This document shows, one piece after another, positions 27,454-34,934 of a stretch of 64,000 bases of DNA. The stretch lies in the NCBI GenBank assembly GCA_965214975.1, contig OZ244055.1:1430994-1494993 (forward strand). The letters run 5' to 3'. The DNA comes from Alphaproteobacteria bacterium. GTDB lineage: Bacteria > Pseudomonadota > Alphaproteobacteria > MPNO01 > UBA830. A program made the translations under genes and the position numbers. Under the pieces are notes generated by a model. It did not search any database and had not been told where the DNA came from. It saw only the letters and a list, made by a program, of their open reading frames with translations. Numbering within the stretch: the first letter of the stretch is position 1; each line of letters opens with the position of its first letter.

Positions 27454-29415
27454 TCAGCTCCCGGCGAGGTCCACGAGTTCCTGCCCCTCCCTCACCCGGT
27501 CGCCCGGCCCGAAGCGGACGGCCGTCACCTCGCCGTCGACCGGGGCGCGGACCGGATGCTCCACCTTCATCGCCTCGATGACCATCAGCACGTCCCCGGC
27601 ACGGACCCTGTCCCCGGCCGCCGCGTGGACGGCCGACACGACGCCGGGCATGGGAGCCGCCAGCGCGCCGCCCCCCGCCCGCCCGCCCCGCCGGGCGAGC
27701 AGGGGATCGTCGATGACGAACAGATGGCGGCAGCCGTCCGCGAACACGGCGATCTCGGCGCCGGCGCGGACGACCTCGGCCTCCACGGAAACGCCGGACA
27801 CGGTGGCGGCGAACGCGTCGCCGGCCCAGCGGCCTCCCGCGGCGACGGAACGGCCGTCTCCGTCGGCGAGTCCGCCGTCCGGACGGAGAACGAAATCGCG
27901 CGGACGCTCCCCGGCGACAAGCCGGATCCTCCTGCCGGCCCTCCCGCCGAGCCGCCACGCCCCGCGGTCGGACCACGGCGAGCGGTCCGGAGGGGACGCC
28001 CGCGGGGACAGCGCGGCGAACGCCGCGAGCGCGGCGACGGCTTCGGTGGGCTCCGGCTGCGGCGCCGCCAGTTCGGCGAGGCGCCGGTCGACGAAACCGG
28101 TGTCGCAGCCGCCGGCCCGGAACTCGGGATGGTCGACGATCGCCTTCAGGAAACGCTCGTTGGTCGCGGGGCCGGCCACCCGGACCGAGGCCAGGGCCGA
28201 CGAGAGACGCCCGAGGGCGGCCGCGCGGTCGCCGCCGAGAGCGGCGATCTTGGCGATCATCGAATCGTAGTGGACGGAGACCTCGCCGCCTTCCGCCACC
28301 CCGCTGTCGACGCGCAGTCCGGCGTCCGGTTCGGGCAGCGCCAGACGGTGCAGGCGCCCGAAGCCGGGACGGAAGCCGTCCGCCGGATCCTCCGCGCACA
28401 GCCGCGCCTCCGCGGCATGGCCCCTGCAGGGGATGTCTTCCTGCCGCCGCGGCAGGGCCTCGCCCGCCGCGACGCGGATCTGCCACTCCACGAGGTCGAG
28501 GCCGGTGATCATCTCGGTCACCGGATGCTCGACCTGGAGGCGCGCGTTCATCTCGATGAAGCGGAAACCGCCGTCGGGACCGACCAGGAACTCGACCGTG
28601 CCCGCCCCCCGGTAGCCGACGGCCCGCGCCGCCGCGACGGCGGCGTCGGCCAGCCTTTCGCGGGTCGCCGCCGGGAGGTGCGGCGCGGGCGCCTCCTCGA
28701 CCACCTTCTGGTGGCGGCGCTGCACCGAGCAGTCCCGCTCGTGCAGATGGACGACCCGCCCTTCGGCGTCGCCGAAGACCTGCACCTCGACATGCCGGAC
28801 CCGCTCGAGGAGCGGCTCGACCATCAGCCTGTCGTCGCCGAAGGAGGCCGCCGCCTCCCGCCGGGCGGCGGCAAGCGCCGGACCGAGACCGGCCTCGTCC
28901 CGGACGACGCGCAGGCCGCGTCCGCCGCCTCCGGCGACCGGCTTGACCATCACCGGAAAGCCCGTCTCCCTCGCGGCCGCGGCCAGGGCGGCGTCGTCCG
29001 GGGCACCGTCCGGACCGCCGCCGAGCACGGGGACGCCAGCCGCCCGCATGACGCGCTTGGCCTCCCCCTTGGACGCCACGGCCCGCATCGTCCCCACGGG
29101 CGGGCCGACGAAGACCAGTCCCGCGGCGGTGCAGGCCGCGGCGAAATCCGGATTCTCCGAAAGGAACCCGTAGCCGGGGTGGACCGCCTCGGCGCCGGTG
29201 CGGCGGGCGGCCTCGACGATTGCGGAACCGTCGAGATAGCTCAGCGCGGCGGGCGCCGCCCCGATGCGCACCGCCTCGTCCGCCATCGCCACGTGCGGGG
29301 AACCGCGATCGGCCGAGGAGTGCACCGCCACCGCACCGATCCCCATCCTTCTGCAGGTGCGCATGACGCGGCAGGCGATCTCGCCGCGGTTGGCGATCAG
29401 GATTCTCCGGAACAT
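27454..29415 (-). CDS. Biotin-dependent acyl-CoA carboxylase alpha subunit (biotin carboxylase + BCCP), MccA/PccA-like, 653 aa
   Basis: N-terminus MFRRILIANRGEIACRV, an ATP-grasp biotin carboxylase domain and the C-terminal biotinyl motif EAMKVEH. ATG 29415 lies 17 nt downstream of the beta-subunit stop. Confidence 0.85.
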   Translation of the reverse strand: MFRRILIANRGEIACRVMRTCRRMGIGAVAVHSSADRGSPHVAMADEAVRIGAAPAALSYLDGSAIVEAARRTGAEAVHPGYGFLSENPDFAAACTAAGLVFVGPPVGTMRAVASKGEAKRVMRAAGVPVLGGGPDGAPDDAALAAAARETGFPVMVKPVAGGGGRGLRVVRDEAGLGPALAAARREAAASFGDDRLMVEPLLERVRHVEVQVFGDAEGRVVHLHERDCSVQRRHQKVVEEAPAPHLPAATRERLADAAVAAARAVGYRGAGTVEFLVGPDGGFRFIEMNARLQVEHPVTEMITGLDLVEWQIRVAAGEALPRRQEDIPCRGHAAEARLCAEDPADGFRPGFGRLHRLALPEPDAGLRVDSGVAEGGEVSVHYDSMIAKIAALGGDRAAALGRLSSALASVRVAGPATNERFLKAIVDHPEFRAGGCDTGFVDRRLAELAAPQPEPTEAVAALAAFAALSPRASPPDRSPWSDRGAWRLGGRAGRRIRLVAGERPRDFVLRPDGGLADGDGRSVAAGGRWAGDAFAATVSGVSVEAEVVRAGAEIAVFADGCRHLFVIDDPLLARRGGRAGGGALAAPMPGVVSAVHAAAGDRVRAGDVLMVIEAMKVEHPVRAPVDGEVTAVRFGPGDRVREGQELVDLAGS

Positions 29416-29432
29416 CGCGACGCGACGGCAGG

Positions 29433-31037
29433 CTACATCCGGAACACGCCGAAGGCCGTGTCCTCGTCCGGCCCGCCGCGGGCGGCGGCGAGACAGAGCG
29501 CGAGCACCATGCGCGTCTCCGCGGGCTCGATGATTCCGTCGTCCCACAGCCGCGCCGTCGCGTGGAGCGGGTGCCCCTCGGTTTCGTACTTCTCGCGGAT
29601 CGGCCTCTTGAAGGCCTCCTCGTCCTCTTCCGGCCACGCGCCGCCGCCGGCCTCGACGCGCCCGCGCCGGACGGCCGCGAGAACGCTCGCGGCCTGCTCG
29701 CCGCCCATCACGGAGATCCGCGCCGTCGGCCACATGAACAGGAAGCGCGGGTCGTAGGCGCGGCCGCACATGCCGTAGTTGCCGGCGCCGAAGGAGCCGC
29801 CGACGATGACGGTGAATTTCGGAACCCGCGCGCAGGCAACGGCGGTCACGAGCTTGGCGCCGTCCTTGGCGATGCCGCCCGCCTCGTAGGACCGCCCGAC
29901 CATGAAGCCGGTGACGTTCTGCAGGAACACCAGCGGAACGTGTCGCTTGCAGCACAGCTCGATGAAATGCGCCCCCTTGAGCGCGGATTCCGAGAACAGG
30001 ACGCCGTTGCTGGCGACGACTCCGACGGCCATGCCGTGGATGCGCGCGAAGCCGCAGACCAGGGTCGTCCCGTAGAGCGCCTTGAACTCCTCGAACTCCG
30101 AACCGTCGACGATCCGCCCGATCACCTCCCGGACCTCGAACGGGGTGCGCAGGTCGGCGGGGACAAGGCCGTTCAGCTCCTCGGGGTCGTGGACCGGCTC
30201 CGCGAAATCCCGGACCGGCGCCCCGCCCGCGGGGGCGCCGAGATCGGCGACGATGCGCCGGACGATGGCGAGCGCGTGGCCGTCGTCGTCGGCCGCGTAG
30301 TCCGCGACGCCGGAGACCCGGGCGTGGACGTCGGCGCCGCCGAGCTCCTCCGCGGTCACCACCTCGCCCGTGGCCGCCCTGACCAGCGGCGGCCCGCCGA
30401 GAAAGATCGTGCCCTGCCCGCGGACGATCACGCTCTGGTCCGACATCGCCGGGACGTAGGCGCCGCCGGCGGTGCAGGATCCCATGACCGCCGCGATCTG
30501 GGGGATGCCCGCCGCCGACATGACGGCCTGGTTGAAGAAGATCCGCCCGAAATGCTCGCGGTCCGGGAACACCTCGTCCTGCCGGGGCAGGTTCGCCCCG
30601 CCGGAATCGACGAGATAGACGCAGGGCAGCCGGTTGCGGTGTGCGATCTCCTGGGCCCGCAGGTGCTTCTTCACCGTGAGCGGGTAGTAGGTGCCGCCCT
30701 TGACCGTCGCGTCGTTGGCCACGATCGCGCATTCCCTTCCCGACACGCGGCCCACTCCGGTGACGATGCCCGCCGCGGGCACCTCCTCGTCGTAGACCCC
30801 CCGCGCGGCGAGCGGCGAGAGCTCGAGAAACGGCGCCCCCGGATCGACCAGGGCGTCGATGCGGTCCCGGACCGGCATCTTGCCCCGCGCGCGGTGGCGT
30901 TCCCGCGCCGCCTCCCCGCCGCCGAGGCGCGCCGCCGCCAGCGCCGACCGCAAGTCGCCGATCGCCGCGCGCATCGCGGCCTCGTTCGCCCGGAACCCGG
31001 CCGAGGCCGGATCCGCGGAGGTCGGGATGACGGCCAT
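29433..31037 (-). CDS. Acyl-CoA carboxylase carboxyltransferase (beta) subunit, MccB-like, 534 aa
   Basis: Two crotonase-like CT halves ([27 protein letters not shown]). Length and N-terminus are typical of methylcrotonyl/geranyl-CoA carboxylase beta subunits. Confidence 0.85.
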
Positions 31038-34296: not shown

Positions 34297-34385
34297 GCCG
34301 GAAGCCCGGCCCGGCCCGAGGCGCGGGAGCCGGGGAAGCCCGGCGTCATGCGGGCGCCGCGGCGGCGTCCGGCGGCCGGCGCATC

Positions 34386-34934
34386 TCAGTCCCCTCCGGC
34401 GAGCTTTTCCGCGAACTGCGCGCGCCAGTCCTCGATCGGCCTGAACGAGGGGTCGGCCCTGGCATGGGCCTCCGACCGGGAGAGGATCTCCTCGTCGGCG
34501 AGCGTGAGGTCGAGATCGTGGCGGTGCGGCTGGTCGATGTACCAGGGCGTGTCCACGAACGCCTCGAGCCTGTTGCCTTCCGGATCGAAGAAATAGACCG
34601 ACCAGGCGTTGCCGTGGTCCGTCACGTAGACCTCCTGCACGTCCTCGTCGCTGCTGACGGCCTCGTGGACCCGGCGGAGATCGGCGAGGCTCCCGCAGCG
34701 GAAGGAGATCTGGTTGACCGTGGTCTGCTCGGTCTCGGGCCTGCGGCCCTCGGCGACGATCACCTGATGGTGATCCCGCGGATCCCTGCTCATGAAGGCG
34801 TATCTCCTGCCGTGAAGGAGCCCCTCGTCCGACACGGCGAAACCGAACATGCGCACGTAGAAGGCCTTCATGCGCTCGTAGTCCCTGACCCAGATCCCGA
34901 CATGGGAAAGGGTCATCTCGGGCAGCATGGCCAT
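34386..34934 (-). CDS. VOC (glyoxalase / bleomycin-resistance / dioxygenase) family protein, 182 aa
   Basis: SD GGAGGA before ATG 34934. [18 protein letters not shown] and HH..V..........[10 protein letters not shown] are typical VOC beta-alpha-beta-beta-beta motifs. Confidence 0.6.

What the first reader, a model, noticed from the sequence alone, without database searches (positions are those of the whole stretch)
27454..34934. A liu-like acyl-CoA catabolic operon carries a leuC/leuD-like dehydratase pair where an enoyl-CoA hydratase is expected
Six minus-strand genes are packed with 8-90 nt spacers or overlaps: VOC protein, IVD-like acyl-CoA dehydrogenase, LeuC-like (GTG 8 nt after the ACAD stop), LeuD-like (ATGA overlap), carboxyltransferase beta, and biotin carboxylase/BCCP alpha. 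Canonical leucine/isovalerate (liu) clusters pair the dehydrogenase and methylcrotonyl-CoA carboxylase with a crotonase-type hydratase, not an aconitase-family dehydratase. The LeuC homolog is otherwise very close to true LeuC, but the normally invariant HEVTSPQAF substrate segment reads [11 protein letters not shown] and is one residue shorter. This could be a bona fide leuCD embedded in its own catabolic operon, which would be odd, or a repurposed LeuCD paralog acting on a 2-alkylmalate-type intermediate of an undescribed route.
Basis: partly seen in the sequence, partly recalled or inferred. Interest (0 to 1): 0.6.

Follow-up and report, generated by a model that had tools for sequence, protein, structure and literature searches.

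The report
LeuCD paralog inserted in leucine-breakdown operon
A pair of genes that look like the leucine-biosynthesis enzyme LeuCD sits inside a leucine-breakdown operon, but it is a later insertion from a large, uncharacterised family of catabolic LeuCD look-alikes and does not stand in for the missing hydratase.

Summary
Six tightly packed minus-strand genes (27454-34934) encode a VOC protein, an orthodox isovaleryl-CoA dehydrogenase, a LeuC-like and a LeuD-like protein, and orthodox methylcrotonyl-CoA carboxylase beta and alpha subunits. The LeuC-like protein reads [11 protein letters not shown] where canonical LeuC reads HLVHEVTSPQAF.

The variant motif marks a large paralog clade: all 120 best database hits carry it. 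Canonical LeuC forms a separate clade (bootstrap 58/60). The clade also differs at other probable substrate-pocket positions but keeps every catalytic and Fe-S motif. In 87 other loci it never neighbours IVD/MCC. Its usual partners are a PrpB-like lyase and tricarboxylate-type transporters, which suggests catabolism of an imported organic acid.

The liu linkage occurs in six related uncultured alphaproteobacterial lineages. Two syntenic sister lineages have VOC-IVD-MCCbeta-MCCalpha with no leuCD pair, no hydratase and no HMG-CoA lyase. So the pair was inserted into a cluster that already lacked the hydratase.

The substrate is unknown. My best guess is a substituted maleate, malate or aconitate, possibly feeding isovaleryl-CoA. 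I could not test whether a canonical leuCD exists elsewhere in the genome.

The parts
34386..34934 (-). VOC (glyoxalase/dioxygenase-fold) protein, 182 aa. It is the first gene of the operon and has an AGGAGG ribosome-binding site.
   Evidence: PF00903, 50 bits. Weak match to the catalytic domain of catechol 2,3-dioxygenase 1mpy, with the His214 equivalent replaced by Gln74. Conserved upstream of IVD in all eight related loci, including those without leuCD*. Its function here is unknown.
33124..34296 (-). Isovaleryl-CoA dehydrogenase (LiuA orthologue), 390 aa. An alternative start at 34344 gives 406 aa.
   Evidence: 605/603 bits to bacterial IVD structures 4o5m/4kto and 496 to human IVD, against about 305 for short-chain ACADs. 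IVD signatures GLDYER (246) and YEIGAGTSE (367) are present.
31719..33116 (-). LeuC* : large subunit of a LeuCD-paralog Fe-S hydro-lyase ('HDGS' clade), 465 aa. GTG start 7 nt after the IVD stop.
   Evidence: PF00330. Passes NCBIfam LeuC models (NF009116 695/531; TIGR00170 618/560). Motif [13 protein letters not shown]. Catalytic and cluster motifs DH(Y), GDSHT, SCTNS, GCSMC and NRNFRGR are intact. Identity is 53-60% to canonical LeuC and 57-79% to HDGS-type copies. dN/dS 0.25 against L085.
31102..31719 (-). LeuD* : small subunit of the same hydro-lyase, 205 aa. Its start overlaps the LeuC* stop by 1 nt (TGATG).
   Evidence: PF00694; NF002458 213/167. GSSRE motif intact. The recognition loop reads IIPARFL where canonical LeuD reads IIPKQFL. 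dN/dS 0.37.
29433..31040 (-). Methylcrotonyl-CoA carboxylase beta (carboxyltransferase; LiuB orthologue), 535 aa.
   Evidence: 823 bits to P. aeruginosa MCC beta 3u9r, against 469 to geranyl-CoA carboxylase beta 5ikl. PF01039.
27454..29415 (-). Methylcrotonyl-CoA carboxylase alpha (biotin carboxylase + BT + BCCP; LiuD orthologue), 653 aa.
   Evidence: PF00289, PF02786, PF02785, PF21139 (BT_MCC_alpha) and PF00364.
35124..35972 (+). Divergently transcribed FAH-family hydrolase/isomerase, 282 aa. It is a conserved neighbour; whether it belongs to the system is uncertain.
   Evidence: PF01557, 220 bits. Best solved relatives are HpcE-like and diketo-acid hydrolases, with maleylpyruvate hydrolase at 110 bits. 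Present in all related loci, but in L216-L218 it is separated from the operon by other genes.

Best explanation
The locus is a lineage-specific leucine/isovalerate catabolic operon, VOC-liuA(IVD)-liuB(MCCbeta)-liuD(MCCalpha). A leuC*-leuD* gene pair was inserted into it between liuA and liuB.

LeuC*/LeuD* is an intact two-subunit [4Fe-4S] hydro-lyase. It belongs to a large, uncharacterised clade of LeuCD paralogs with a remodelled probable substrate pocket. Elsewhere this clade sits in catabolic operons with tricarboxylate-type (TTT) uptake systems and a PrpB-like C-C lyase, and sometimes with PrpD, a LeuB-like dehydrogenase, family-III CoA-transferases, acyl-CoA dehydrogenases or an HMG-CoA-lyase homologue.

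By analogy with AcnB/PrpB of the methylcitrate cycle and DmdAB/Dml of nicotinate fermentation, it most likely hydrates or isomerises a substituted maleate, cis-aconitate or malate. The product would be a 2-hydroxy acid that a lyase or dehydrogenase then cleaves.

In this lineage the pair is co-transcribed with IVD and MCC. It is therefore expressed together with branched-chain acyl-CoA catabolism. The most economical chemical link is an isopropyl-bearing acid, such as 2-isopropylmaleate or isopropylmalate, whose cleavage yields isovalerate or isovaleryl-CoA.

The pair does not replace 3-methylglutaconyl-CoA hydratase. That enzyme and HMG-CoA lyase must be encoded elsewhere in the genome.

Shown: gene identities, clade membership, the insertion history, purifying selection, and the usual partners of the clade. 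Inferred: co-transcription, substrate class, and the link to isovaleryl-CoA.
For: - Orthodox Liu enzymes: IVD scores 605 bits to IVD structures, and MCCbeta scores 823 bits to P. aeruginosa MCCbeta.
- Intact enzyme: LeuC*/LeuD* keep all catalytic and cluster motifs.
- Clade-wide differences sit at probable pocket positions. In LeuC these are HE(V)TSP to HD-GSF, DHN to DHY, and GCSMC-LA to -VG. In LeuD the loop changes from KQ to AR.
- All 120 best homologues share the motif.
- Phylogeny: the canonical LeuC clade excludes the window copy (58/60 bootstraps), and the liu-linked group is monophyletic (100/100).
- Context in 87 HDGS-type loci: none has IVD/MCC nearby. A PrpB-like lyase (TIGR02317, 295 bits, below the 354 cut-off) is directly upstream in 20 of the 74 loci that have an upstream gene, and directly after leuD in 4. 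A TTT binding protein occurs in 17 loci.
- Related pairs in cultured strains sit in explicit catabolic operons. Examples are Skermanella pSM-1 tctCBA-leuC-leuD-ICL/PEPM under GntR, Variovorax TTT-leuC-leuD-leuB, and Roseomonas PrpD + ICL/PEPM.
- Insertion history: six lineages carry IVD-LeuC*-LeuD*-MCCbeta. Syntenic sisters L217 and L218 have IVD directly followed by MCCbeta, with no hydratase or lyase.
- Selection: dN/dS is 0.25 for LeuC* and 0.37 for LeuD*, similar to the flanking liu genes at 0.19-0.34.
- Operon structure: 7-nt and -1-nt junctions, and no minus-strand terminator inside the operon.
Against: - No PrpB-like lyase, LeuB-like dehydrogenase or TTT transporter is encoded in the 64-kb window. 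The usual downstream partner is missing locally.
- The link to isovaleryl-CoA is purely chemical reasoning.
- No member of the HDGS clade has been characterised. None was found in the literature searches.
- Co-transcription is inferred from spacing only.
- The pair could be a functionally unrelated passenger that borrows the liu promoter.
- I could not verify that a canonical leuCD exists in the same genome.
Confidence: 0.6

Rival explanations
1. Functionally unrelated passenger. The leuC*D* pair was inserted by chance into the liu operon and is simply expressed from its promoter. Its real pathway, with a PrpB-like lyase encoded elsewhere, has nothing to do with leucine or isovalerate.
For: In 87 other loci the clade is never linked to liu genes. 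The insertion is confined to one narrow lineage. No partner lyase or transporter lies nearby.
Against: The arrangement is retained in six lineages that have diverged to about 76-79% LeuC* identity. Junctions are tight and translationally coupled, and purifying selection matches that on the neighbouring genes. An insertion that puts 2 kb between liuA and liuB would be expected to be lost if it were useless under liu-inducing conditions.
Confidence: 0.2
2. A true isopropylmalate isomerase. It is either the organism's only LeuCD or a catabolic isozyme acting on 2-/3-isopropylmalate, embedded in the catabolic operon.
For: Both subunits pass NCBI's LeuC/LeuD equivalog cut-offs and keep all catalytic residues. 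Identity to canonical LeuC is 53-60%. Isopropylmalate breakdown would chemically converge on isovaleryl-CoA.
Against: The pair lies outside the well-supported canonical LeuC clade. It differs at conserved probable pocket positions in both subunits. The clade's usual contexts are transporters and lyases, not leuA/leuB. Related pairs in cultured strains are plasmid-borne; these taxa are generally prototrophic (my own knowledge). Sister lineages lack the pair at this locus.
Confidence: 0.12
3. A repurposed LeuCD that replaces the crotonase-type 3-methylglutaconyl-CoA hydratase (and perhaps the lyase step) in a new variant of the liu pathway.
For: The operon and the whole window lack liuC and liuE. 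Reference clusters carry both genes.
Against: Sister lineages without the pair also lack liuC and liuE in the cluster. The pair is not at the hydratase's usual position. Aconitase-family enzymes chelate the hydroxyl and a carboxylate on the same carbon of a free 2-hydroxy acid to the Fe-S cluster (established knowledge). HMG-CoA and 3-methylglutaconyl-CoA are beta-substituted CoA thioesters and cannot bind in this way. The clade's normal partners point to free di- or tricarboxylates.
Confidence: 0.04

Closest known systems
3-Isopropylmalate dehydratase LeuCD (EC 4.2.1.33), bacterial two-subunit type
   Same: Same two-subunit architecture and lengths (465 and 205 aa). Same fold families (PF00330, PF00694). 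All Fe-S ligands and catalytic residues are present. It passes the NCBIfam LeuC and LeuD cut-offs.
   Different: It belongs to a separate clade. The segment reads HD-GSF(H/N)AF instead of HEVTSPQAF and is one residue shorter. DHY replaces DHN, and the LeuD loop reads AR instead of KQ. The context is catabolic, without leuA or leuB.
Liu cluster for leucine/isovalerate catabolism (LiuA-E, as in P. aeruginosa; alphaproteobacterial form IVD-MCCbeta-ECH-MCCalpha-HMGL)
   Same: IVD, MCCbeta and MCCalpha are clear orthologues, in the same order and orientation.
   Different: The cluster lacks the hydratase and HMG-CoA lyase. It carries a VOC gene in front and, in six lineages, the leuC*D* pair between IVD and MCCbeta.
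Hydratase-plus-lyase pairs acting on free acids: AcnB or AcnD/PrpF with PrpB in the 2-methylcitrate cycle, and dimethylmaleate hydratase DmdAB with 2,3-dimethylmalate lyase Dml in Eubacterium barkeri nicotinate fermentation
   Same: An aconitase-family hydro-lyase is genetically paired with an ICL/PEP-mutase-family lyase. This is the commonest context of the HDGS clade. In Roseomonas a PrpD homologue is present as well.
   Different: The lyase scores below the PrpB cut-off (295 vs 354 bits). The hydro-lyase is of the bacterial LeuCD type, not AcnB or AcnD. The substrate is unknown. In the window itself no lyase is present.
Maleate hydratase HbzIJ of Pseudomonas alcaligenes (Liu, Xu & Zhou 2015, AEM 81:5753, cited in PMC12294151; content from my memory, paper not held)
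   Same: It is a two-subunit (large + small) hydratase acting on a maleate produced by a hydrolase in an aromatic ring-cleavage pathway. Here the pair lies near a VOC-fold protein and an FAH-family hydrolase.
   Different: The VOC protein has Gln in place of one canonical metal-binding His. The FAH gene is not tightly linked in the sister lineages.

Membership tests
Aconitase superfamily, LeuC/LeuD-type two-subunit hydro-lyase | Aconitase and Aconitase_C domains on two adjacent genes, with three cluster cysteines and the catalytic Asp-His, Asp-Ser-His, Asn-Arg...Arg and Ser-Ser-Arg motifs | tested here: met
   PF00330 at 520 bits and PF00694 at 77 bits. PDHYV, GDSHT, SCTNS, GCSMC and NRNFRGR in LeuC*, and GSSRE in LeuD*.
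Orthologous biosynthetic LeuCD (EC 4.2.1.33) | Score above the curated NCBIfam equivalog cut-offs | tested here: met
   TIGR00170 618 vs 560; TIGR00171 168 vs 116. The whole paralog clade passes the same models, so this test does not discriminate.
Orthologous biosynthetic LeuCD (EC 4.2.1.33) | Conserved segment HLVHEVTSPQAF in LeuC and IIPKQFL loop in LeuD | tested here: not met
   The window has [11 protein letters not shown] (one residue shorter) and IIPARFL. Canonical residues are 87-100% conserved in 74 LeuC and 60 LeuD sequences.
Orthologous biosynthetic LeuCD (EC 4.2.1.33) | Phylogenetic placement inside the canonical LeuC clade | tested here: not met
   In the NJ tree of 115 sequences, the canonical clade excluding the window copy is supported 58/60. 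The window groups 100/100 with the other liu-linked copies inside HDGS-type sequences.
Orthologous biosynthetic LeuCD (EC 4.2.1.33) | Being the genome's functional isopropylmalate isomerase (sole copy, or able to complement a leuCD deletion) | not testable with these tools
   Only 10 kb on each side of a gene is readable, and the genome-wide scans are exhausted. This needs the full 5.25-Mb contig (ERZ21830287 contig_1) or GCA_964347355.1.
Liu leucine-catabolic cluster | Isovaleryl-CoA dehydrogenase orthologue | tested here: met
   605 bits to 4o5m and 496 to human IVD, against about 305 for SCAD. GLDYER and YEIGAGTSE signatures present.
Liu leucine-catabolic cluster | Methylcrotonyl-CoA carboxylase beta and alpha subunits | tested here: met
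   823 bits to 3u9r MCCbeta against 469 to GCCbeta. The alpha subunit has the BT_MCC_alpha domain.
Liu leucine-catabolic cluster | 3-Methylglutaconyl-CoA hydratase (crotonase) and HMG-CoA lyase in the cluster | tested here: not met
   tblastn with the Azospirillum ECH and HMGL proteins gives no hits in the window or in L215-L217, and the Pfam scans of L215-L218 list no crotonase or HMGL gene. Pfam scans of the window's ORFs found none either. Reference clusters have both.
Hydro-lyase + ICL/PEPM-lyase catabolic module (methylcitrate-cycle-like or DmdAB/Dml-like) | Adjacent co-directional ICL/PEP-mutase-family lyase | tested here: not met
   The lyase is absent from the window. It is present next to 24 of the other HDGS-type pairs and in Skermanella, Azospirillum and Roseomonas. 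The clade works in such modules, but this locus is not one.
Maleate hydratase HbzIJ | Sequence relatedness to HbzI/HbzJ and activity on maleate or alkylmaleates | not tested
   The sequence and the paper are not held. The resemblance rests on my memory of Liu et al. 2015.

The most novel reading that the evidence does not exclude
The 'HDGS' LeuCD paralogs, together with PrpB-like lyases and TTT transporters, form a widespread and undescribed module for catabolism of substituted maleate, aconitate or malate-type acids. In this lineage the hydro-lyase has been wired into the liu operon. That would create an undescribed route in which an isopropyl-bearing C7 acid, such as 2-isopropylmaleate or isopropylmalate, is converted to isovalerate or isovaleryl-CoA and burned through IVD and MCC.
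Probability: 0.25. Interest if true: 0.65.

Novelty: new variant of a known kind. Interest (0 to 1): 0.42.

Why it matters
- Annotation. Pipelines therefore label it 'leucine biosynthesis'. Its pocket residues and genomic contexts say it is a catabolic hydro-lyase for some other acid. This affects metabolic reconstructions of many soil and marine Proteobacteria.
- An unassigned pathway. The recurrent operon of TTT transporter, PrpB-like lyase and LeuC*D* points to an unassigned organic-acid pathway. Cultured strains offer a way in, for example Skermanella mucosa pSM-1.
- Operon evolution. The liu-linked version is a clean natural example of operon remodelling by insertion. It offers a hypothesis for the substrate class, namely branched alkyl acids.
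- A caution. It also shows that a 'missing' hydratase in a cluster should not be read as replacement by whatever else is there.

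Tried and rejected
- The genome-contig scan with the LeuC* protein returned only canonical leuCD loci at 50-61% identity.
- My first neighbour analysis, which picked the longest ORFs, was corrupted by spurious high-GC ORFs. I redid it with per-locus codon models.
- Eight literature searches found nothing on a liu-leuCD linkage or on a LeuCD-like plus PrpB-like pathway. 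The R. rubrum and Variovorax hits concerned the ordinary methylcitrate cycle. The maleate hydratase paper (PMC4551245) is not held.
- Cluster-member names were uninformative, because all were MAGs.
- Promoter and terminator scans, inverted-repeat scans and Rfam gave no regulatory element for the operon.
- A ring-cleavage reading of VOC plus FAH has only weak support. The VOC match has E = 2e-5 and a His-to-Gln change at a metal ligand. The FAH protein is generically HpcE-like.
- I considered and rejected hydration of 3-methylglutaconyl-CoA or HMG by LeuC*D*, on mechanistic grounds and on the sister-lineage evidence.
- I did not run structure prediction. Model coordinates cannot be measured with these tools, and fold matches to aconitase or IPMI would add nothing.

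Full report
**1. What is there**

The window is about 70% G+C, so I picked frames by third-position G+C and by homology. On the minus strand, 27454-34934 holds six genes:
- VOC-fold protein (34386-34934)
- acyl-CoA dehydrogenase (33124-34296)
- LeuC-like protein (31719-33116, GTG start)
- LeuD-like protein (31102-31719)
- carboxyltransferase (29433-31040)
- biotin carboxylase/BCCP protein (27454-29415)

The junctions are 89, 7, -1 (TGATG), 61 and 17 nt. No minus-strand intrinsic terminator lies inside the block. An FAH-family gene is transcribed divergently at 35124-35972. An SNF2/SWIM helicase, recA and alaS follow downstream.

**2. The liu genes are orthodox**

- The ACAD scores 605 and 603 bits against bacterial isovaleryl-CoA dehydrogenase structures and 496 against human IVD. 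Short-chain ACADs score about 305. It carries the IVD signatures GLDYER and YEIGAGTSE.
- The carboxyltransferase scores 823 bits against P. aeruginosa MCC beta and only 469 against geranyl-CoA carboxylase beta.
- The alpha subunit has the MCC-specific BT domain.

Reference liu clusters in Azospirillum ramasamyi and Methylobacterium oryzae read IVD-MCCbeta-enoyl-CoA hydratase-MCCalpha-HMG-CoA lyase. The window operon lacks both the hydratase and the lyase. Neither is found anywhere in the 64 kb.

**3. The LeuCD-like pair is an intact enzyme from a distinct paralog clade**

Both subunits pass NCBI's LeuC and LeuD cut-offs, and all catalytic and Fe-S motifs are present. The segment [13 protein letters not shown] replaces the canonical DRHLVHEVTSPQAF, with one residue deleted.

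This is not a private oddity. All 120 best hits among billions of proteins (64-79% identity) carry DRHL[C/A/L]HDGS[F/Y].

I compared 196 'HDGS' sequences with 74 canonical alphaproteobacterial LeuCs. The clade-specific, highly conserved differences fall at the following positions:
- the variable segment itself
- the residue after the catalytic Asp-His (DHY versus DHN)
- the residues after the cluster-binding GCSMC
- the LeuD recognition loop (IIPARFL versus IIPKQFL)

By motif correspondence with aconitase (my own knowledge of the family), these are probable substrate-pocket positions.

In an NJ tree of 115 sequences the canonical LeuCs form a clade that excludes the window copy (58/60 bootstraps). 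The window copy groups 100/100 with its liu-linked relatives, among other HDGS-type sequences. Sister variants also exist (HEGS, HDGT, QDGS, HDVT), many of them plasmid-borne second copies in cultured Azospirillum, Roseomonas, Skermanella, Variovorax, Neorhizobium and Paraburkholderia.

**4. What the clade normally does**

A degenerate DNA pattern for the variant motif recovered 120 metagenomic loci. I called genes with a codon model trained on each locus's own leuCD and then clustered the neighbours. Across the 87 loci analysed:
- No locus had IVD or MCC nearby.
- The commonest neighbour was an ICL/PEP-mutase-family protein closest to methylisocitrate lyase PrpB, but below its cut-off (295 vs 354 bits). 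It was co-directional and directly upstream in 20 of the 74 loci with an upstream gene, and directly after leuD in 4 more.
- TTT/Bug binding proteins occurred in 17 loci and SDRs in 15.
- Generic ACADs, family-III CoA-transferases and, in one sub-group, an HMG-CoA-lyase-family gene also recurred.

Cultured strains show complete examples:
- Skermanella mucosa pSM-1 has GntR | tctC-tctB-tctA-leuC-leuD-ICL/PEPM.
- Variovorax paradoxus has TTT-SBP-leuC-leuD-leuB-like.
- Roseomonas has PrpD and ICL/PEPM beside the pair.

The pattern is that of a hydratase/isomerase working with a C-C lyase (or a decarboxylating dehydrogenase) on an imported di- or tricarboxylic acid. This is analogous to AcnB/PrpB in the methylcitrate cycle, or to DmdAB/Dml in nicotinate fermentation (established knowledge). 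No paper in the held library describes it.

**5. History of the liu linkage**

Exact-protein look-ups show the same FAH | VOC-IVD-LeuC*-LeuD*-MCCbeta-MCCalpha-SNF2-RecA-AlaS arrangement in L085, L215 and L216. The same IVD-LeuC*-LeuD*-MCCbeta core appears on the short contigs L213 and L214. Counting the window, that makes six lineages from different samples. LeuC* identity among them is 76-79%.

dN/dS against L085 is 0.25 for LeuC* and 0.37 for LeuD*, within the range of the flanking genes (0.19-0.34).

Two syntenic sister lineages are decisive. L217 and L218 have MCCbeta at 80-81% identity and the same FAH, VOC, IVD, RecA and AlaS neighbours. They have IVD followed directly by MCCbeta and then MCCalpha, with no leuCD pair, no crotonase and no HMG-CoA lyase.

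The ancestral cluster of this lineage was therefore VOC-IVD-MCCbeta-MCCalpha, and leuC*D* was inserted later. The missing hydratase is not explained by the pair, and the pair does not occupy the hydratase's usual slot between beta and alpha.

**6. How it most likely works**

Shown:
- an intact Fe-S hydro-lyase of a catabolic paralog clade
- its insertion into, and probable co-transcription with, an orthodox liuA-liuB-liuD operon

Inferred:
- It hydrates or isomerises a substituted maleate, aconitate or malate-type free acid.
- Co-expression with IVD and MCC suggests a substrate whose breakdown yields isovalerate or isovaleryl-CoA. One example is 2-isopropylmaleate to 3-isopropylmalate, followed by a lyase (giving glyoxylate + isovalerate) or by LeuB and BCKDH.
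- The lyase or dehydrogenase partner, liuC and liuE must lie elsewhere in the genome.

A role as a 3-methylglutaconyl-CoA hydratase is very unlikely. Aconitase-family enzymes bind a 2-hydroxy-carboxylate to the cluster iron (established knowledge), and the sister lineages argue against it.

The rival readings are a functionally unrelated passenger, a true isopropylmalate isomerase, and a hydratase replacement. I weight them 0.20, 0.12 and 0.04.

**7. Limits**

- I could not check for a canonical leuCD, liuC, liuE or a PrpB-like lyase elsewhere in the genome.
- The tree is distance-based and unrooted, with a midpoint root only.
- The correspondence of the variable segment to aconitase Gln72-Thr75 rests on my memory of the aconitase sequence.
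- The content of the HbzIJ maleate hydratase paper is from memory, because the paper is not held.

**8. Verdict**

The 'in place of the hydratase' part is not.

The finding is a new variant of known kinds: a LeuCD-family hydro-lyase and a liu operon. It is of moderate interest. Its main value is that it exposes a large, mis-annotated and uncharacterised family of catabolic LeuCD paralogs, and it gives a hint about the substrate class.

Noticed in passing
window 34386-34934 (-); L217 7217-7768; L218 7204-7755: A 182-aa VOC-fold protein is the conserved, tightly coupled first gene of this lineage's liu operon, even where leuCD* is absent (7-nt gap to IVD in L217 and L218). It keeps the extradiol-dioxygenase-like His, Tyr and Glu positions but has Gln where metal ligand His214 of XylE lies. 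No role for a VOC protein in leucine catabolism is known to me.
   Followed up: partly
window 24644-27352 (-): An SNF2-family helicase (its N-terminal region looks like a SWIM zinc finger by eye, not confirmed by Pfam) lies between MCCalpha and recA only in the lineages that carry leuCD* (L085, L215, L216). The sister lineages L217 and L218 instead have an Elm1-like gene and an inositol-1-phosphate synthase gene there.
   Followed up: partly
window 7927-8000 (+) and about 8000-12000: A tRNA-Gly(CCC) gene is followed by about 4 kb of markedly lower G+C (0.58-0.60 against about 0.70). This may be an integrated island.
   Followed up: no
window 36320-45938: This stretch holds three amidohydrolases, DUF3830, an SDR, an ornithine cyclodeaminase/mu-crystallin homologue, an Amdase/maleate-isomerase-family protein and an M20 peptidase. 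It looks like a catabolic island for a cyclic amide or N-heterocycle.
   Followed up: no
window 46199-52223: This stretch holds a predicted AAA-ATPase with a PD-(D/E)XK nuclease domain, a DDE transposase (48132-49172) and a NOV_C-domain protein. It is probably mobile or defence-related.
   Followed up: no
L087 10001-14060; L148; L203; L042 8570-11332: Some genomes carry tandem LeuC-LeuD-LeuC-LeuD arrays that combine an HDGS-type pair with a further variant (PDWQHR or HDLKGG in the same segment). This indicates repeated duplication and divergence of this pocket segment.
   Followed up: partly
L088, L089, L219-L221 (annotated plasmids): RefSeq annotates these catabolic-context paralogs as leuC and leuD with the GO term 'leucine biosynthetic process', because they pass the equivalog cut-offs. 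This is probably a systematic mis-annotation.
   Followed up: partly
L130, L152, L189: One HDGS sub-group sits beside a divergent ACAD, HMG-CoA-lyase-family and MBL-fold lactonase-like gene set, with an EamA transporter. This is a second, independent association of the clade with acyl-CoA and HMG-lyase-type genes.
   Followed up: partly
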